This document shows, piece after piece, positions 1,983-55,960 of a DNA stretch of 64,000 nt (position 1 is its first letter; every line of letters begins with the position of its first letter). Position numbers and translations under genes: made by a program. Source of the DNA: Opitutales bacterium (GTDB taxonomy: Bacteria > Verrucomicrobiota > Verrucomicrobiia > Opitutales > PNEW01); assembly GCA_965197745.1 (NCBI GenBank), contig CBDANS010000007.1, positions 768,001 through 832,000 of the forward strand, in the 5' to 3' direction. The notes beneath the pieces were generated by a model that saw nothing but the letters and a program-made list of their open reading frames with translations, searched no databases and had not been told where the DNA came from.

Positions 1983-2830
1983 AGTTTAAATACCAACAGT
2001 TTTAAGCAATGGCTCTAACTGGTTGATAGGAATCTGTGTTCCACACGCACAGGTTTTTCGGCCGTTGTATGCATATATCCCAGTTCATGGTAGAAGATTA
2101 CGGGACGGAAAAAGGAATCAAGAATGAACAGGTTAATGACAAGGGTTGTATTCGATTGAAATGAAGGAGGTGATGCTATTAGAAGATCTGAGTAATACCT
2201 AATGAACGAACACTGCCTACTATCTTGCATAAGCTTATCTAATCATTGACGATGAGAAAAAGGATAGGCTATGATCTGTGTGATAAAATTCCTGATCAAC
2301 ATTCTTTTTTCTAATTACCCGAGAGGGTAAACCCATTTATCCTTACATGAATATACTACAAGACAGTCTTTCTTAATTTTCTCACAGTGGAACCGGGATA
2401 ACCTTTTCTCAGGTCGCTGCAATCTAGGTTTTTGCTAACGACTTCCTCGACCACCGGCTTTAGCTATACATTTTTTTAAAACTAATAGATAATATTTTAT
2501 AAAATTATAGAGAGGCACAAGCTAGCTGAGTTTCCTCGTTCTGCAAACGGTTCTATCTCATTTTCAATCCCAATCCTTTAGATTTTTGTGATGAAGTAAA
2601 TAATCATGTACTTGTAGATAAACTAGCGGTACTAAATTTATCATTGAAATTAACAAGCCAATAAAATCATCTAATAATTTATTAGATGCTGGAATAATTA
2701 AATTATAGATGTTCCTTTTACTACTTATGTATTAGCTCTATTAGATTTCCCAAAAAACTCATCAATTGTTTAATTCACACCAAAAATACTGTAAATAGCG
2801 TTGATCGGACCCCGTATTTCGTATCAAATT

Positions 2831-3827
2831 TTAAGTGAGAGAACTACCGGGTGTTAATGGTTTTAGGATTGATGTATATGAGAGATCTTGGCGCAGTGAG
2901 GGCGTAGCCCGAACGCGGCCAAGAGCGGAAAGGAATGTGACAAACTCTTGTGGGCTTTTAAAGCCTAATCGACTGTGGGGATGTTCATTGTTATAGGTCT
3001 GACGCCATTGTTCTATTAGCACTTGCGCTTCAGCCACGCTGAGCAACACTTCACGGTTCAAACACTCATCGCGTAAGCGGTTGTGAAACGACTCGATGAA
3101 ACCGTTTTGCCAGGGACTGCCCGGATCGATATATATCGCCTTGATCTTTTTGTCGGACAACCACTGCTGCACCTGATGAGCAATGAATGGCTTCGCATGT
3201 CGTCGCTTCGCTCCTCGGAACACTGCCGTTGTCACTGCGGATATAGCTAGGAACTCCCTCTTCATCGATGGTTTCGCTGAGTACCGAGAGAACATCGGTT
3301 GAGGTGAGCTGTCGAGCTACCCGGATGCGTAAACATTTACGCGTATATGTCTTCGCTTCGCTTGAGTGTCGTCGCTTTCAGCTCCTCGGTACATCGATCA
3401 AGGTCATCATCTTTAGCATACCGCCATTGTCTGTACGATCATGGACAAAGTCCCAGGACCAGACGTGATTGCGACCGGTTGCTTTAGTAGGGAGCCCAGT
3501 AGAGATCCCCTGACGGTGTCTACGCTTTTTCGGTGGCTTTACCTGTAAGCCCGAAGAACGTCGCACTGCCTGTACAAATTTCCTGCTTGCCGCCCAACCT
3601 TCTTTCACCAGCAAGGCACGAATGCGCCGGTAACCGTAACGGGGATGTTCCCAGGACAAGGTCAAAATCCGCTCGGCCAATTGCTGAGCCTTCTTACTGG
3701 CCTGCTTGGGTCGGTAGCTGTACGTTGACCAACTGAGGCTGAGATAAGCACAAGCCCTCTAAAACGAGCACAGCCCCTTCTCAGCCGCATCTTTTACTGC
3801 TCGCTTCTTCTGCTTTGGGCTCACCAT
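2831..3827 (-). pseudogene. IS3 transposase orfB (integrase core), disrupted
   Basis: HPRYGYRR, WSWDF, RSDNG and PGSPWQNGFIESF motifs split by an early TAG, a 45-nt insert containing TGA (3348-3392) and a 34-nt frameshifting insert (3188-3221). Confidence 0.88.
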
Positions 3828-4087
3828 TTTTTTGAGAGCGTTTCCTCCAACACCCGAAGCTTGAGCATTTGATCAGCGAGCATCTTCTTCAGCTCCGTAT
3901 TCTCCTTTTCCAGCTCTTTAAATCGCTTCGCATCAGCCAGCTCCAAGTTGCCATACTTTTTGCCCCAGCGATAGAAGGTCTGTTCACTTAGGTTGTTGCC
4001 GTGGCAGACTTCCTGCACGGTTTTGCCCGTATCGGGCTGCCGCAGTATTGCTATGATCTGTTCTGTTGTATATCTTTTTCTTTTCAT
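3821..4087 (-). CDS. IS3 transposase orfA (HTH)
   Basis: MKRKRYTTEQIIAILRQ...SEQTFYRW...KELEKEN.ELKKMLA; A7 run at the orfA/orfB junction. Confidence 0.9.
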   Translation of the reverse strand: MKRKRYTTEQIIAILRQPDTGKTVQEVCHGNNLSEQTFYRWGKKYGNLELADAKRFKELEKENTELKKMLADQMLKLRVLEETLSKKW

Positions 4088-4152
4088 TGAGGTTATCTGT
4101 TTATCCCGATAACCTCTCTCTGTTAATGATACCATTTTTGGGGGTCACTCCA

Positions 4153-5430
4153 CCTGCAATTACATTGCTGAAAAAGCTGTTTCTGCTCCTGCCCTGGATC
4201 CTCGCGGGAATCTTTATGCTTATCAGCATTCTTAACCCGGCTTACGAGAGATATTTTTTACCCAATACTCAAGACGCTTTTCGAAGAATAGATTACAATA
4301 ATTTATTACCCTCAACGGTAGATGTGGTGCGAACAACAGAGAAAGTTTCACTCTTAACCGGTGTGATGGCGCTCTCTGTTGCCTTGTTCTATCTCGTGCG
4401 TCGAAGACGGGATATACGTCTTATACTGAATATCATCTTCATCAACAGCCTTGTCTTAGGCATTGTCGGTACGGTGTTTAACCTGATGGGAACTGACCGT
4501 ATTCTTGGAATGTTTGATCCCGTCAATACCATGTTTTTTTCCAGTTTTCGCTACCACAACCACTGGGCTGGGTTTACTCTCCTTTGCCTTGGTGTGGGGC
4601 TGGCGCTTTACAGCTACTATCACAGTAAAGACGATGCCAGGAAAAGTCGGTCTCGTACATCCACTTTTTTTCTCGGGATGTTATTTTTTTTAGCGTTGAG
4701 TATCCCTTTATCGGGGGGGCGCACGGGCATGCTTCTGCTAATTGTCATGGGGGTATTATTTTTCTTCAGGCTTTGGTGGAGTGAAATTCAAAAGCGCCGA
4801 AGGGGATATCACAGAAGATACTTATTAACTAAGTTAGTCGCAGTCGTCACTGTCGTCATGGTCGTCACCTGGCTGATTTATCAACTCGGTGAGGAGATGA
4901 TCCAAGTTCGCTGGGAAAAATCGATTCATCAGTATGAAGATATATTAAGGGGTGAGGCAATGGAAATGCGGGTATATTCCACACGTGACACACAGGGTAT
5001 GGCGTTGGACAAACCCTGGTGGGGTTGGGGTTTAGGTTCTTTTACCTACGCTTTTAAACTTTATGCGGGACCTGAGTTCTACCGTGGAAAACACTATTTA
5101 CGCATGGAGTTCGCCCACCAGGACTGGCTGCAGTATTGGGCCGAATTGGGGACTGTGGGTTTTGCCGCCTTGTTAGCTCTCCCCGTATTCATTGTCATTA
5201 TTGTTTTGAGACGAGGAAAGTCCAACCCGGTTACGGGCTGGCTAGCGGTCGGTTGCGGCCTGATCCTCGTAATGGCTTGTTTTGAATTCCCCCTGAGCAA
5301 CCCGGCGATTATCGCCCTGTTTTTTATACTCGGAACTCTCGCCGCGAAGTATGCGTTATTAGAAAGTCAAATGTCAAAGGTCGAAGGTCGAAGGCGGGAT
5401 GGGGAAATGGGTGAAAGCGATAAAGGGTGA
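4153..5430 (+). pseudogene. O-antigen ligase family (Wzy_C) membrane protein, 5'-truncated by IS3
   Basis: Multi-TM; SFRYHNHWAG, SGGRTG, KPWWGWGLGSF and AHQDWLQYWAELG motifs. The ORF start at 4066 lies inside the IS, so the native start is missing. Confidence 0.75.
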
Positions 5431-13717: not shown

Positions 13718-13790
13718 GGATTCACTAGTCAAAAAGTCAAAAGGTCAAAAAGTCAAAAAATAAAAATCCTTGGATTTTTAGTGTTATGTT

Positions 13791-28866: not shown

Positions 28867-29310
28867 GGACGCAACGGAGTGCGTCCCTCCAGAAAATAAA
28901 TGGAGAGATGAAGACACGGGCGATGACGAAGATTGTCGATTTACATTATAGAATATAGCTTCTTCTTCGTCCTTCCAGTTATTTCACCCCGGAGGGGTGA
29001 CACAATCACAGCTCGCAGCGTAAGCTTTGGGAATAATTTACGAATAATTTAAGCCCCAGCGGGGCGACACAAACCGGCTTATCTGTCAATTTGTATCGCC
29101 CCTCCGGGGCTCTGAAAATGGGTTGCACATCTCAAACCCATTGCTTACGCAATGGGCTAATTATGTTACGCCCCTCCGGGGCTTCGACGCTAAGATAAAC
29201 GAACTTAAAAGCGGACGCGACGACGCGCGTCCCTCCAGAAAATGAATGACATTGCGTGCTCTCCTATTCTGTTCTTTTCCGGAGGGCCACGCGTTGTCGT
29301 GGCCGTAACC
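28867..29310. repeat. REP cluster with IS200/RAYT-type palindromic repeats
   Basis: GGAG-REPs at ~28867, 29211 and 29281; agccccagcggggcgac / cgcccctccggggct inverted units at 28985-29185. Confidence 0.7.
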
Positions 29311-30739: not shown

Positions 30740-31876
30740 TTTCAATCTTCAATTGTACCCGTAGAGCATTCGTTCCTGAATATGATTGAATACTGAATTC
30801 GGATTGCGGATATACACAGTCGAAAAGTATAATTATAATCTAAGAGAGGATCTTTAAAGAGGTGATTCTATTATTGCATTTTTGCAATAATATGGCATTG
30901 AAATACATGCAATTAATATCATGTAATGATATTCCTATTATTTTAATTCGAGTTCTTTCTTAAAATGAAGTCATAACGTCATTTTAAAGTAAAGAAATAT
31001 GGCTCTAATATACACCGATTCAAAACATGATGTTCTCGATGGTGAAAAAAATGCATCATGTGATCAGCAAAACCCCAGTACCCCACATCAATTGAATAAG
31101 GGTAGCCGACGTAAAAGGTTTTCTTTAAAGAAGAAACTCCTTTTTTCTGTCATTGTCGCTGGGTTATTTTTCGGAAGTCTTGAGTTTGTCTGTTTTCTTA
31201 CCAAGTCTCTCTATATTAATTTTCGCAAACTTGGTTTACCCGCATATGCGGTTAATTACATGCCAAGTACGATTAAATACACGCTTCGCGAAAACGTGCT
31301 TTCTAAACCGGACAAAGAACTTTTATTTCGAGTAGAGCAAAACCCATCAGGTTTATCTATGCAGGGTTATTCTGGAATTAATGCACATGGCTTTCGCGGT
31401 AATATTTATGATCCGAGTCTTATAAATAAAGATGAGACAAAAATTATGATTCTTGGTGACTCCTGTGCCTTCGGGTGGGGTATACGGGATTATGGACTTA
31501 CATTTCAGTCGATATTGGAAAAACGGTTAAATCAACGGCAATGTGACTATAAAGTTTATAACTTTTCACAACCCGGATACAGTTCCAGTCAGGGAAGAAT
31601 AATATTTGAAAAATGGTTCTCTAGAGTCAGTCCCGATCTTCTTATAATTTATTTAGGGTGGAATGATATCTGGGAAACACCGCTATTAACGGATAGCCAG
31701 AATCTTAATCTATTTAAATACACAAAAAAAACCCCCTTTAAGTGGATTCAAAAATCTCACACTTACCTGGCATTTGAATCTCTCTATCAATCGTTAATAA
31801 AACCAAGTGGTGAGTATGCAGATATCAAAAATAAAAAATTAAGAGTCTGATTGGACCCCGTTTTTCGTACCAATTA

Positions 31877-32873
31877 TTAAGTGAGAGAGTTCCCGGGTAT
31901 TAATGGTTTTAGGATTGATGTATATGAGAGATCTTGGCGAAGTGAGGGCGTAGCCCGAACGCGGCCAAGATCTGAAAGGAATGTGACAAACTCTTGTGGG
32001 CTTTTAAAGCCTAAACGACTGTGGGGATGATCATGGTTATAGGTCTGGCGCCATTGTTCGATTACAACTTGTGCTTCAGCCACGCTGAGCAACACTTCAC
32101 GGTTCAAACACTCATCGCGTAAGCGGTTGTGAAACGACTCGATGAAACCGTTTTGCCAGGGACTGCCCGGATCGATATATATCGCCTTGATCTTTTTGTC
32201 GGACAACGACTGCTGCACTTGATGAGCAATGAATGGCTTCGCATGTCGTCGCTTCGCTCCTCGGAACACTGCCGTTGTCACTACGGATATAGCTGGGAGC
32301 TCCCTCCTTTTCAATGGCCTCGCTAAGCACAGAGAGGACATCCGATGAGGGGAGTTCACGAGCGACCCGGATATCCAGACATTCACGCGTATATGGCTTC
32401 GCTTCGCTTGAGTGTCGTCGCTTTCAGCTCCTCGGTACATCGATCAGAGTCATCATCTTTAATGGACCGCCATGGTCTGTGCGATCATGGACAAAGTCCC
32501 AGGACCAAAGGTGATTGCGACCGGTTGCTTTAGTAGGCGACCCCGTAGAGACCCCTTGACGGTGTCTACGCTTTTTAGGTGGCTTTACCTGCAACCCTTC
32601 TGAACGTCGTACCGCCTGAACAAACTTCCTGTTTGTTGTCCAGCCTTCCTTTACGAGCAAGGCACGGATGCGCCGGTAACCGTAGCAGGGATGTTCCCAG
32701 GACAGGGTTATAATCCGCTCGGCCAACCGCTGAGCTTTCTTACTGGCCTGCTTGGGCTGGTAGCTGAAAGTTGACCAACTGAGGCTGAGGTAGGAACAAG
32801 CCCTTCGCAACGAGCACAGCCCTCTCTCAGCCGCATCTTTTACTACTCGCTTCTTCTGCTTGGGGCTCACCAC
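31877..32873 (-). pseudogene. IS3 transposase orfB, disrupted by two micro-inserts
   Basis: DDE motifs present; 45-nt insert 32394-32438 (contains TGA) and 34-nt insert 32234-32267. Confidence 0.88.
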
Positions 32874-33133
32874 TTTTTTGACAGCGTTTCCTCCATTACC
32901 TGATTCTTAAGCATTTGATCAGCGAGCATCTTCTTCAACTCGGTGTTTTCTTTTTCCAGCTCTTTAAATCGCTTCGCATCGGCTAGTTCCAAATTGCCAT
33001 ACTTTTTACCCCAGCGATAGAAGGTCTGTTCACTCACGTTGTTGCCTCGGCAGATTTCCTCTACCGTTTTTCCGGTATCGGCTTGCCGCAGTATTGCGAT
33101 GATCTGTTCTGTTGTGTATCTTTTTCTTTTCAT
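32867..33133 (-). CDS. IS3 transposase orfA (HTH)
   Basis: Paralog of 3821-4087 (8 of 88 aa differ). Confidence 0.9.
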   Translation of the reverse strand: MKRKRYTTEQIIAILRQADTGKTVEEICRGNNVSEQTFYRWGKKYGNLELADAKRFKELEKENTELKKMLADQMLKNQVMEETLSKKW

Positions 33134-33808
33134 GAGGTTATCTGTTTATCCCGATAACCTCTCTCTGTTAATGATACCATTTTTGGGGGTCACTCCAAGT
33201 CCCTATGGAGGAGGCGATTGCCAACTTCAAAGCCTTTATTGAATCAGCTGAAAATTATCAAACTGAAATTATTCTAATACTGCCTCCCGTATCCAATCGT
33301 GCGCCGCGATTGAGTGGTATACTGGAATATAATGAAAGTATCCGCTATGCTTTTCATGATAATGCAATGATCCTTAAATTAGATGACATGGATTATGACG
33401 CTCCATCTTCATACGGTTACTTTTTTCCCGATGGGTTGCATCCCAATACGGAAGGGGCAAAATATATTGCTTTTCAAATTGCACCCCTATGTCATCGCAT
33501 TGCAGCGATGAGAGCAGAAAGCAATAAAAGCAATGGTTCATTAACGCTTCGCGATGACGATAACCGCATTTTGCAGCGCACTCCGTAGATTGATTCTCTG
33601 AAGAGCACTTACTCTCAGCAAATTTTATATGTCTGGATATCAGGTATAAAGGCTTTTACTTGCTATCAAAGTTATGTCTCAATAAGATATTATTTTATCA
33701 TATGATTGAAATATCTTTTAATTTTTATTAACACAATTCGGGGTAAATCATTTTAGTATCGAACCACGAGAAGGAGCTGACTCTTTACTGATAAAATATA
33801 AATTTCCA

Positions 33809-35202: not shown

Positions 35203-35325
35203 ACGAAGATTATGGCTAATTAATACACTATGAATCTTCGTCTGCCTCCTCGTCTTCGTCCTCTTATACCCTAATTACTTAATAATAAGAGTTATTAAAT
35301 CTAAAACTGTTTATCAAACTTCCCA

Positions 35326-35356
35326 GCGGACGCGACGACGCGCGTCCCTCCGGAAA
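35326..35356 (-). repeat. GGAG-type REP
   Basis: gcggacgcgacgacgcgcgtccctcc, same as 29211. Confidence 0.75.
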
Positions 35357-35476
35357 ATCAATAAAGGGTGGGAGGCAGACGAAGACGAAGATTTGTACCC
35401 CATTGCAATAACTTTCAGTTATATCCCGTCATAACCCCAATTTTTCTATTGTGTTAAGAGGATACCTTTTAGATAT

Positions 35477-36217
35477 ATGGCTACCATGAGTGAATTAGAA
35501 AATAAAATTGCTATCGTTACGGGAGCCGGAACCGGTATTGGTAAAGGGATTGCCAGAGCATTTGCCCGTGAAGGCGCCAATCTCGTGTTGGCTTCACGGA
35601 ATGAAAAAAATCTGCAAACCACCGCAGAGGAACTCAAAGAATATAATAGGGAAGTTATAATTGTTCCTACTGATATTACTAAAGAAGATGAAGTCCTGGC
35701 CTTATTTAAGCAGACCATGGATACCTTTAGTCGCCTCGATATCATGATTAATAATTCGGGTATATCCGTAGGTAAATCGATTGATGAATTATCACTTCAG
35801 GAATGGAACGAGGTTATCGATGTTAACCTCACAGGAACTTTTCTATGCAGCCGGGAAGCGATGAAAATCATGAAAAGACAGGGCGGGGGGAGAATTGTCA
35901 ATATCGGCAGTATTTCCGGGCAAATGCCTCGCTTGAACTCGGCCCCCTATGTTGCCACAAAATTCGGAATAGCGGGTTTAACCAAAGCAACCGCCCTTGA
36001 AGGGCGTGATTTTGGGGTGGCAGCCAGTTGTGTTCACCCCGGCAATGTAGCGATAGAACGGCGTGTGGCTAGTGAATCCTCGCAGGACCAGGAACCCATG
36101 ATGTCCGTAGACGATATCTCTAAAGTCGTGCTGACCTCGGTTACGCTACCCCCCAACGTTAATATGTTTGAGTGTATCACGCTTCCCGTCGGTCAGTTAT
36201 ATTTAGGAAGGGGATGA
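35477..36217 (+). CDS. short-chain dehydrogenase/reductase
   Basis: TGAGTGIG, NNSG, YVATK and HPGN motifs. Confidence 0.92.
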   Translation: MATMSELENKIAIVTGAGTGIGKGIARAFAREGANLVLASRNEKNLQTTAEELKEYNREVIIVPTDITKEDEVLALFKQTMDTFSRLDIMINNSGISVGKSIDELSLQEWNEVIDVNLTGTFLCSREAMKIMKRQGGGRIVNIGSISGQMPRLNSAPYVATKFGIAGLTKATALEGRDFGVAASCVHPGNVAIERRVASESSQDQEPMMSVDDISKVVLTSVTLPPNVNMFECITLPVGQLYLGRG

Positions 36218-36223
36218 GCCATG

Positions 36224-36360
36224 AGTCAAAAAGTCAAAAGGTCAAAATGTCAAAAAGTTGGTTGATGCAAGATGCATGATCCAGGATTCAGGATAATCTA
36301 ACCGCTTATCTCATTTATCGCTTTTACGCGTCTACGCATGATCTCATATACCTTTTGACC
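36224..36360. repeat. nested inverted array element (family A, GATGCAG, 8-mer)
   Basis: agtcaaaaagtcaaaaggtcaaaatgtcaaaaag ... gatgcaagatgcatgatccagg ... taaccgcttatc...ccttttgacc. Confidence 0.8.
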
Positions 36361-55570: not shown

Positions 55571-55741
55571 GATCTTGTTCCCTGGGATCGACAAGTGTGG
55601 CTTGCCTTATAACTCATGTCAAGGGGTTGGGTGTTTGGTCTAATTGAAGTGAGTTCAGAGAAATCATCGTCTTCGCCCATACCTGTCTAAATACTTAAAT
55701 TTATAGGTAGTATAATTAAGACTATTTTTCAAACTACCCAA

Positions 55742-55960
55742 CAGACGCGACGACGCGCGTCCCTCCAGAAAAGAACAAATGGGAGGGCCACGCGTCGTCG
55801 TGGCCGCTTAGGAGAATGATCATACAATTGAGATAAATTTAAATAGGATAAAGATTATACTCAAGACACTTTCATTTTTGTGTATCTTGTGCTTTTGGAA
55901 GATGTCGCCCTGCTATTGCAGGACTCGGAAGTGGCTATCAAATCGTGGACGAAATCGAAG
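55742..55960. repeat. REP-containing composite repeat with micro-insert
   Basis: Inverted REP pair (55742, 55781); 10-mer array carrying a 34-nt insert at 55898-55931. Confidence 0.8.

What the first reader, a model, noticed from the sequence alone, without database searches (positions are those of the whole stretch)
32234..32438. The second, diverged IS3 copy has the same two inserts at the same two codons
Seen: the IS copies differ at many third positions and at 8 of 88 orfA residues, yet the 34-nt insert is identical and the 45-nt insert differs by one base. Copy 2 has a clean AGTC target duplication, so it arrived by real transposition. Inference, three options: (a) independent recent targeting of the same sites; (b) mobilisation in trans or gene conversion after inactivation; (c) the inserts are removed or bypassed during expression, like micro-introns. 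Options (a) and (c) would be new biology.
Basis: partly seen in the sequence, partly recalled or inferred. Interest (0 to 1): 0.8.

Follow-up and report, generated by a model that had tools for sequence, protein, structure and literature searches.

The report
Tiny mobile inserts breaking IS3 transposase genes
Two diverged copies of a jumping gene carry the same two tiny inserts because these belong to a family of 25-45-base mobile modules that repeatedly land in the same codons of transposase genes and break them; they are not mini-introns.

Summary
Copy 2 (window 31848-33197, minus strand) and copy 1 (2802-4152) are IS3-family elements 10.9% apart outside the inserts, yet their two inserts differ at 1 of 79 bases. 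Insert-free relatives show each insert replaces the last two bases of a Glu codon (net +42 with an in-frame TGA; net +31, a frameshift). dN/dS between the copies is 0.08-0.23 in every segment, also downstream of the breaks, so "one old inactivation plus neutral decay" is rejected. The inserts are younger than the split. They are two of at least five site-locked lineages of a module family (TACCGAG...GACGACA...CCA) found in 20 of 151 Opitutales genomes sampled. Twelve of 16 presence/absence combinations occur among 52 copies. Copies identical except for one insert exist. The same codon is hit in IS3 elements only about 40% identical in protein, and related modules sit in tRNA T-loop sequences. 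RNA-library contigs keep the inserts, TGA is a normal stop here, and no special fold or splicing enzyme was found, so the micro-intron reading gets no support. The broken copies probably spread with transposase supplied in trans or were homogenised. The enzyme that moves the modules is unknown. This scan noted the family before in related genomes.

The parts
31848..33197 (-). IS3-family insertion sequence, copy 2 (1350 nt), subfamily A; TG...CA ends
   Evidence: Pfam HTH_Tnp_1, HTH_21 and rve_3. G000 holds 10 copies at 98.9% identity or more.
31844..31847 (.). Left copy of the 4-bp target duplication AGTC (right copy at 33198-33201)
   Evidence: Read directly.
32867..33133 (-). orfA (88 aa, helix-turn-helix)
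32873..32879 (-). A AAA AAG slippery heptamer for the -1 frameshift into orfB
   Evidence: Read. The orfB frame opens at 32873.
32439..32873 (-). orfB segment B1 (145 codons up to the Asp before insert e1)
   Evidence: dN/dS 0.15 against copy 1.
32394..32437 (-). Insert e1: 44 nt replacing AA of a GAA (Glu) codon in L-I-D-E-Y; net +42; in-frame TGA at 32424-32426
   Evidence: Filled and empty copies. Distant intact relatives read IDEY.
32268..32393 (-). orfB segment B2 (42 codons, open) between the two inserts
   Evidence: dN/dS 0.13 with dS 0.90.
32234..32266 (-). Insert e2: 33 nt replacing the last two bases of the Glu codon in S-D-N-G-S-E-F, 3 residues after the second catalytic Asp; net +31 (frameshift)
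   Evidence: Intact relatives read NGSEF or NGPEF.
31877..32233 (-). orfB segments B3-B5 (open, in the frame displaced by e2), holding the catalytic Glu region; sites 3 and 4 are empty here
   Evidence: (187-aa ORF), rve_3, dN/dS 0.19-0.23.
2802..4152 (-). IS copy 1 (subfamily B, 15 copies in G000): same e2 at 3188-3220 and e1 at 3348-3391, plus an in-frame TAG in B1

Best explanation
The two inserts are secondary insertions of an Opitutales-wide family of ultra-small modules (25-45 nt). Each module starts T[A/T]CCGAG, then has a 2-6-bp mini-hairpin, then (G)ACGACA, a variable tail, and ends CCA or CA. A module lands after a G or C and replaces the next two bases (A plus A or G), with no target duplication and no inverted ends. 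At least five lineages are locked to single codons of IS3-type transposase genes. e0 sits in orfA. e1 to e4 sit in the catalytic core of orfB, all after the first base of a Glu or Gln codon. e1 and e2 entered the A and B lineages of this IS after those lineages had diverged as working transposase genes. They arrived by a site-specific, homology-poor, copy-to-copy process, with a short patch of at most about 40-66 nt. (Inferred: the enzyme is unknown.) The inserts stay in the transcript and destroy orfB, through a stop in e1 and a frameshift in e2. The many near-identical broken copies arose through transposase supplied in trans, or through homogenisation among copies (inferred).
For: - Empty is the ancestral state. 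7 distant relatives with open orfB read IDEY, NG(S/P)EF, PW(Q/E)NG and RDEC at the four sites.
- Selection acted before the breakage. dN/dS for copy 2 against copy 1 is orfA 0.08, B1 0.15, B2 0.13 (dS 0.90), B3 0.23, B5 0.19.
- The inserts are young. 1 of 79 insert bases differ against 10.9% elsewhere.
- The states are mobile. 12 of 16 state combinations occur among 52 copies from three genomes, and all six site pairs show four gametes. At least 6, 5, 9 and 6 state changes are needed on the tree.
- Clean events exist. In G002, L106 and L107 differ from L104 only by e1 over 1303 nt. In G000 the second IS ('ISy') has 4 empty and 9 e2-filled copies. These differ only by the insert and 3 substitutions in the next 5 nt, with the 5' flank untouched.
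- The same codon is hit across lineages. e2 occurs 73 times in G000 in three or more IS3 lineages whose flanks share only about 8-nt identical runs. A variant module sits at the DNGP-E-F codon of an IS3 only 36-42% identical, in family f12.
- The family is wide. The core motif is in 20 of 151 genomes across 10 families, with the reversed control at 0. More than 100 generic copies lie in G000. A non-IS filled/empty pair follows the same rule.
- Related modules sit in T-loop sequences (GGTTCG^AA) of partial tRNA repeats in G000, G001, G035 and G071.
- The copies are dead yet amplified. 0 of 37 G000 copies are insert-free. All subfamily B rows carry an extra TAG.
- The inserts are not removed. 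RNA-library contigs X18 records 21 and 22 and X19 record 27 span the inserts without gaps.
- TGA ends 345 of 946 long ORFs.
Against: - No mobilising enzyme was found. The single Y1 (HUH) transposase gene of G000 is not flanked by the modules.
- Each site always carries its own insert lineage. This is also what transfer between IS copies by recombination would give.
- The 3 substitutions next to e2 in ISy show that a few donor-flank bases travel along, so a template is copied rather than a fixed-end element being pasted.
- No fully insert-free copy of this IS was found in G000 (0 of 37). The two G002 copies with open orfB carry e0 in orfA, so the source of transposase for the recent bursts is not identified.
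- The RNA evidence is contigs only. These can contain DNA and drop rare spliced forms.
- Only 15 copies from G001 and G002 were put in the state table.
Confidence: 0.6

Rival explanations
1. Each insert arose once. It was then passed among the more than 100 IS3 copies of the genome only by ordinary homologous recombination or gene conversion (concerted evolution). This also keeps the subfamilies homogeneous, and no dedicated insertion machinery is involved.
For: One insert lineage per site. Mosaic divergence between copy 1 and copy 2, with dS 0.90 in B2 against 0.07 in B3. Three donor-like substitutions travel with e2 in ISy. Homoplasy on the tree.
Against: The flanks differ within 9-11 nt of e1 between copies 1 and 2, and within 7-17 nt in G002 lineages. 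e2 crosses between IS lineages that share only about 8-nt identical runs beside the site, and the 5' flank is never co-converted. A different module variant occupies the same codon in a 36-42%-identical IS3 of another family. Modules of the same build sit in tRNA T-loop sequences and other repeats, which are not homologous to IS3.
Confidence: 0.25
2. The inserts are old and are kept by selection, because they are removed or bypassed during expression (micro-introns, translational hopping, stop read-through). The insert-bearing copies would then still encode working transposase.
For: dN/dS is far below 1 downstream of both breaks. The inserts are much more conserved than the flanks. The most amplified variants in G000 and G002 all carry inserts, and e0, e1 and e3 keep the frame.
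Against: - Copies that differ only by an insert exist, so the inserts are recent.
- RNA-library contigs keep e1, e2 and e4.
- No excision of a contiguous block restores the Glu codon, because two bases were replaced.
- e2 (+31) and e4 (+35) shift the frame in different ways, and e1 is in frame but holds a TGA, so no single recoding rule fits.
- TGA is a common stop here.
- No EndA, no Rfam match in 9518 bases searched, and the folds are weaker than shuffles, z +1.07 and +1.25.
- Subfamily B also carries an ordinary TAG.
Confidence: 0.05
3. A single ancestral inactivation by both inserts was followed by neutral decay of all descendants.
For: Both copies share both inserts at identical positions.
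Against: dN/dS is 0.08-0.23, not about 1. The inserts are about 9-fold less diverged than the rest. Empty sites exist in close relatives of both lineages.
Confidence: 0.02

Closest known systems
REP / REPIN and CGTC-tagged REP repeats (Di Nocera et al. 2013, PMC3733652, passages read; Bertels & Rainey 2011, PMC3116915, passages read)
   Same: Both are very short (20-45 nt), hairpin-bearing, non-coding and highly repeated. They have a CCA-like tail, are sometimes found inside genes, and no dedicated transposase is known for the CGTC type.
   Different: The stems here are 2-6 bp, not 8-9 bp. The GACGACA/CGACA motif lies between the hairpin and the CCA tail, not at the terminus. The Y1 gene is not flanked by them. 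Individual lineages are locked to single codons. Two target bases are replaced.
Rickettsia palindromic elements (RPE; named in PMC3733652; details recalled)
   Same: Small selfish repeats inserted inside protein-coding genes of a host-associated bacterium.
   Different: RPEs are longer, keep the frame and are translated as part of a working protein. e1 carries a stop and e2 shifts the frame.
Small dispersed repeats (SDR) of Nostoc/Anabaena (Elhai et al. 2008, Genome Res 18:1484; only its reference-list entry seen in PMC3116915; content recalled)
   Same: Mobile repeats under 50 nt that nest inside other mobile elements, moved by an unknown mechanism.
   Different: A different phylum and different sequence. 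Codon-level site locking in transposase genes and T-loop targets are not recalled for SDRs. The paper could not be read here.
Homing of group I / group II introns
   Same: A sequence spreads from filled to empty homologous sites, is site-specific, and gives a patchy filled/empty pattern among copies.
   Different: The modules are 25-45 nt with no ribozyme fold and no ORF. They are not spliced from RNA as far as the contigs show, and they inactivate the host gene.
Non-autonomous IS derivatives and MITEs mobilised in trans
   Same: Explains many near-identical copies of an IS whose own transposase gene is broken.
   Different: The host IS keeps full length. The breaking agent is itself a second, smaller mobile module without inverted ends or target duplication.

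Membership tests
IS3 family (host element) | orfA with helix-turn-helix; orfB with DDE (rve) domain | tested here: met
   HTH_Tnp_1 E=1.3e-21; HTH_21 E=1.8e-11; rve_3 E=1.2e-25.
IS3 family (host element) | -1 frameshift motif A AAA AAG, TG...CA ends, 3-4-bp target duplication | tested here: met
   Heptamer at 32873-32879. Ends TGG.../...TCA as read on the minus strand. AGTC duplication.
REP / CGTC-tagged REP | Terminal GTAG or CGTC tag next to an 8-9-bp stem with a 4-5-nt loop | tested here: not met
   Stems are 2-6 bp. The CGTC/TGTC-like motif is internal, on the side of the CCA tail. Criteria taken from PMC3733652.
REP / REPIN | Cognate RAYT (Y1 transposase) gene flanked by the repeats | tested here: not met
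   The one Y1_Tnp gene in G000 (C6:163380-163706) has no module within 1.5 kb on either side.
MITE | Terminal inverted repeats and target-site duplication | tested here: not met
   The ends T[AT]CCGAG and CCA are not inverted repeats. Two target bases are replaced rather than duplicated.
IS200/IS605-type palindrome-associated elements | Insertion 3' of a fixed 4-5-nt target word | tested here: not met
   The upstream tetramers differ: GATG, AGTG, TCCG, TCGG, CCTG, TGGC, TTCG, CTTG. Only the last base, G or C, is shared.
Introns (group I/II, archaeal bulge-helix-bulge) | Absent from mature RNA; conserved fold; splicing enzyme | tested here: not met
   RNA-library contigs retain the inserts. No Rfam match apart from tRNAs and 2 sub-threshold hits on a tRNA. 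Fold z-scores +1.07 and +1.25. PF01974 is absent from G000, which is 92% complete.
Translational bypass elements (T4 gene 60, mitochondrial byps; recalled) | Matching take-off and landing codons around a skipped block that restores the frame | tested here: inconclusive
   From the sequence, no matching codon pair brackets e1 or e2 in a way that restores the Glu-containing frame. No protein data are available.
Rickettsia palindromic elements | In-frame, stop-free insert translated within a functional protein | tested here: not met
   e1 has a TGA and e2 is +31. Only e3, which is absent from these two copies, is in frame and stop-free.

The most novel reading that the evidence does not exclude
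A dedicated and still unknown machinery moves 25-45-nt modules by sequence-specific homing into G^AA-type sites. Its natural targets would be tRNA T-loop-like sequences and look-alike codons in the catalytic core of IS3 transposases (GGTTCG^AATCC resembles GGTTCCG^AATTC). The modules would then be the smallest known site-specific mobile DNA and would act as parasites, or host-favoured silencers, of insertion sequences. The exact 5' junction, the CCA 3' end and the few co-copied 3' flank bases would fit a target-primed, template-copying step, for example reverse transcription of a small CCA-ended RNA.
Probability: 0.35. Interest if true: 0.8.

Novelty: new variant of a known kind. Interest (0 to 1): 0.6.

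Why it matters
Short dispersed repeats are common in bacteria, but how they move is mostly unknown. This system offers dozens of clean filled/empty pairs, including elements identical apart from the insert. It gives a precise insertion rule: after G or C, two bases are replaced. It has codon-level site fidelity and a second natural target class in tRNA T-loop sequences. That makes the mechanism experimentally approachable. The modules knock out transposase genes at catalytic-core codons, so they may shape the expansion and decline of insertion sequences in IS-rich, apparently sponge-associated Opitutales genomes (one of the laid runs is recorded as a sponge metagenome). For annotation, conserved in-frame TGA or frameshift 'features' in such IS copies should not be read as recoding signals.

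Tried and rejected
- **Cyanobacterial origin.** This was my first guess from the heptamer repeats. It is rejected: the nearest relatives are Opitutales MAGs.
- **Splicing.**
  - No archaeal-type splicing endonuclease was found. One RtcB gene is present, which says nothing on its own.
  - Rfam at E<=1 on 3 loci gave only tRNAs and two sub-threshold plastid-UTR hits on a tRNA.
  - The RNA folds of the inserts are no better than shuffles.
- **RNA-library contigs.** No joint specific to RNA was seen.
  - The one joint at site 2 in X18 has 8 other letters between its sides. It looks like an empty-site copy of a related IS.
  - X1, a run of unknown kind, has a similar joint.
  - Contigs cannot show that rare spliced forms are absent.
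- **TGA as a sense codon.** Rejected.
- **Y1 transposase as the mobiliser.** Its flanks hold no modules. The co-occurrence across 151 genomes is uninformative because of genome size.
- **Fuzzy-regex search for empty sites.** It timed out and was replaced by a blastn search.
- **Tree drawing.** It failed on a naming error after the change counts had been printed.
- **Literature.**
  - Searches found no description of these modules.
  - Elhai et al. 2008 is not held.
- **Guide hypothesis.** I looked by eye for complementarity between module tails and target flanks and saw nothing convincing. No formal test was run.

Full report
**What is there**

The finding lies inside an IS3-family insertion sequence on the minus strand, copy 2 at window 31848-33197 (1350 nt).
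- It has TG...CA ends and an AGTC target duplication at 31844-31847 and 33198-33201.
- orfA is 88 aa at 32867-33133, followed by an A AAA AAG slippery site at 32873-32879.
- orfB is fragmented but its pieces match HTH_21 and rve_3.
- Copy 1 is at 2802-4152.
- The window is G000:C7:768001-832000 of a 4.45-Mb, 7-contig genome. Its nearest named relatives are Opitutales MAGs.

**Checking the observation**

- The two copies differ at 140 of 1350 aligned positions.
That is 1 of 79 against 139 of 1271 elsewhere, Poisson P(<=1)=0.0017.
- OrfA differs at 8 of 88 residues.
- Seven distant relatives with uninterrupted orfB (L039, L041, L042, L048, L051, L059, L060) read IDEY, NG(S/P)EF, PW(Q/E)NG and RDEC. 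So the blocks are true insertions.
- Filled/empty comparisons fix the geometry. After the first base of a GAA or GAG codon, the next two bases are replaced by 44 nt (e1) or 33 nt (e2).
  - e1 is at window 32394-32437, net +42, with an in-frame TGA at 32424-32426.
  - e2 is at 32234-32266, net +31.

**A larger pattern in the same IS**

- G000 holds 37 near-full-length copies of this IS: 10 of subfamily A, 15 of subfamily B and 12 more diverged.
- Alignment shows four insert sites in orfB, all after the first base of a Glu or Gln codon in the catalytic core. e3 is +42 with no stop, and e4 is +35.
- Adding 15 copies from two related genomes, G001 and G002, gives 12 of the 16 possible state combinations among 52 copies. 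All six site pairs show all four gametes, including sites 3 and 4, which are only 39 nt apart.
- A quick maximum-likelihood tree with the insert columns masked needs at least 6, 5, 9 and 6 state changes for the four sites. Recombination makes that tree only an average.
- None of the 37 G000 copies is insert-free.

Nei-Gojobori dN/dS between copy 2 and copy 1:

| Segment | dN/dS | dS |
|---|---|---|
| orfA | 0.08 | 0.62 |
| B1 | 0.15 | 0.48 |
| B2, between the inserts | 0.13 | 0.90 |
| B3 | 0.23 | 0.07 |
| B5, behind the frameshift | 0.19 | 0.18 |

The divergence therefore built up while the gene was working. The inserts are much younger than the split. 'Single old inactivation plus neutral decay' is rejected.

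**The inserts are recent and clean**

- In G002, two 1303-nt copies (L104, L105) have an open 346-aa orfB frame and are empty at sites 1-4.
- About 40 identical 1345-nt copies, of which two were read (L106 and L107, identical to each other), differ from L104 only by e1 and the junction base.
- In G000 a second IS3 element, called ISy here, is 1287 nt with a fused 415-aa ORF.
  - It has 4 empty copies and 9 copies that carry e2.
  - The only fixed differences between the two groups are the insert and 3 substitutions in the next 5 nt.
  - The 5' flank is unchanged, and an unrelated haplotype 650 nt away occurs in both groups.

**Site fidelity across unrelated hosts**

- e2 occurs 73 times in G000, allowing up to 5 substitutions. 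By eye it is always at the homologous D-N-G-x-E-F codon.
- It sits in at least three IS3 lineages whose flanks share only about 8-nt identical runs.
- In G114, a different Opitutales family, an IS3 OrfB only 36-42% identical to L041 carries a different module variant at the same codon.
- This supports repeated targeting of the same site rather than only inheritance or classical gene conversion.

**The family**

- The inserts share a common build: T[A/T]CCGAG, a mini-hairpin (often GC-GAA-GC), (G)ACGACA, a tail, then CCA or CA.
- G000 has more than 100 further short copies outside these sites (135 regex hits, which include chance matches), often embedded in heptamer arrays or in larger repeats.
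- A filled/empty pair in a non-IS repeat obeys the same rule: after GGC, AA is replaced (pair h40).
- A 25-nt member sits at the A8 frameshift site of ISy in 8 of 43 copies.
- The core CCGAGGAGC-N2-8-GCGACGACA occurs in 20 of 151 sampled Opitutales genomes across 10 families. The reversed control pattern gave 0 in every genome.
- Outside IS3 genes the long module type is found in T-loop sequences, where GGTTCG^AA becomes GGTTCG[module].
  - These T-loops belong to partial tRNA 3' repeats that follow intact tRNA genes: tRNA-Asn and tRNA-Gln in G000, Asn in G001, Arg in G035, Ser in G071.
  - The module is antisense in tRNA-Leu-like sequence in G063 and G040.
- The ISy target GGTTCCG^AATTC resembles a T-loop. 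This resemblance is my reading, not a test.

**Are the inserts removed or bypassed?**

- Contigs of two metatranscriptomic runs span the inserts without gaps. X18 record 22 covers 32310-33034, X18 record 21 covers 32155-32339, and X19 record 27 covers 32284-32517.
- One X18 contig even carries e4 at site 4.
- The only joint at site 2 has other letters between its sides, as an empty copy of a related IS would. A similar joint is in X1, a run of unknown kind.
- These are contigs, so they may include DNA and cannot exclude rare spliced forms.
- TGA ends 345 of 946 ORFs of 400 aa or more.
- No tRNA-splicing endonuclease was found in G000, which is 92% complete.
- Rfam gave nothing for the IS.
- The inserts with their flanks fold less well than shuffles, z +1.07 and +1.25.
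- Two bases were replaced, so cutting out any contiguous block does not restore the Glu codon.
- e1 (in frame, with a stop), e2 (+31) and e4 (+35) would each need a different recoding trick.
- I therefore reject option (c), at about 5%.

**How the broken copies multiplied**

- All subfamily B copies share an ordinary in-frame TAG in B1, besides e1 and e2 (the '1 TGA, 1 TAG' rows). Yet there are 15 of them.
- G002 has about 40 identical copies carrying e1 and also a fifth insert, e0, in orfA. e0 is net +27 with an in-frame TGA.
- This fits non-autonomous amplification with transposase supplied in trans, or homogenisation among copies. Neither is shown.
- The supplier is not identified.
  - ISy is intact in 4 copies, but its ends match this IS only loosely.
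  - The two G002 copies with open orfB still carry e0.

**Mechanism (inferred)**

- The 5' junction is always exact.
- The 3' end is CCA or CA, with loss of two target bases. In ISy a few donor-flank bases are copied along.
- There are no inverted ends, no duplication and no fixed upstream word.
- This does not fit MITEs, IS200/IS605-type elements or classical REPs.
  - Di Nocera et al. 2013, of which I read passages, define CGTC REPs by 8-9-bp stems and a terminal tag. They also note that Opitutus terrae has the most intragenic GTAG REPs among the species they surveyed.
- A template-copying step primed at the target would fit, with resolution by microhomology downstream, but no enzyme is implicated.
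- The one Y1 transposase gene is not flanked by modules.

**Prior notes and literature**

- This scan had already noted the same insert family on related genomes (e1-2715631, e1-2714719, e1-2715148, e1-2715535). Those notes led me to the Di Nocera paper.
- I re-derived their main claims independently here.
- New here are the dN/dS test, the ISy and G002 clean pairs, the two-base replacement rule, the order-wide distribution and the tRNA T-loop contexts.
- Four literature searches found no description of these modules. Elhai et al. 2008 could not be read.

**Verdict**

The intron or bypass reading is not supported. The best account is a family of ultra-small, site-locked mobile modules that break IS3 transposase genes and spread among copies after their divergence.

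Noticed in passing
L087:593-905 (G000:C6:355392-355704) and L088:388-610 (G000:C5:236387-236609): An intact tRNA-Asn gene is followed by two units of about 100-135 nt, and an intact tRNA-Gln gene by one. Each unit ends in an 18-nt repeat of the tRNA 3' end and carries an e2-like module inside the T-loop sequence. A stem covaries with the tRNA (GGCAGGAT/ATCCTGCC against GGCTAGGAT/ATCCTAGCC). The same layout occurs in G001, G035 and G071.
   Followed up: partly
G000:C7:1901266-1902552 (also C4:136859-138145, C7:406740-408025, C7:1352654-1353939): A second IS3 element ('ISy', 1287 nt) has orfA and orfB fused in one 415-aa open frame and is empty at all insert sites. 39 further copies of 900 nt or more exist. 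8 of the 43 carry a 25-nt module, in the opposite orientation, exactly at the A8 frameshift site.
   Followed up: partly
window 31920-31975: A GC-rich inverted repeat sits near the 3' end of the IS, inside the orfB tail. One diverged copy (G000:C7:160049-161454) lacks 22 nt of it, so it may be a further small insert of a related kind.
   Followed up: no
window 3700-3720 (copy 1, minus strand): Subfamily B has an in-frame TAG in orfB segment B1, where copy 2 reads Leu-Arg. By the search table, all subfamily B copies share it.
   Followed up: partly
window 2798-2801 and 4153-4156: Copy 1 has no matching 4-bp target duplication (GCGT against CCTG), unlike copy 2.
   Followed up: no
window 30999-31850 and 33205-33588: Two ORFs abut copy 2 on either side and may be the two halves of one interrupted gene. 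I did not check this against an uninterrupted homologue.
   Followed up: no
whole window, e.g. 5366-5399, 13719-13767, 36211-36264; 29202-29247, 35317-35362, 55732-55777: Dense arrays of 7-8-nt tandem repeats (GTCAAAAG-like, GATGCAG-like) and several families of 43-100-nt GC-rich hairpin repeats are scattered through the window.
   Followed up: no
L104:500-1802 (G002), orfA region: A fifth insert, e0, lies in orfA. It replaces one Asn codon with 10 codons (net +27) and holds an in-frame TGA. It is present in all four G002 copies read, including the two with open orfB.
   Followed up: partly
G040 (whole genome): 70 matches to the module core, nearly all with one loop variant (GGAT). This suggests the module rides on, or has colonised, another high-copy element there.
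   Followed up: no
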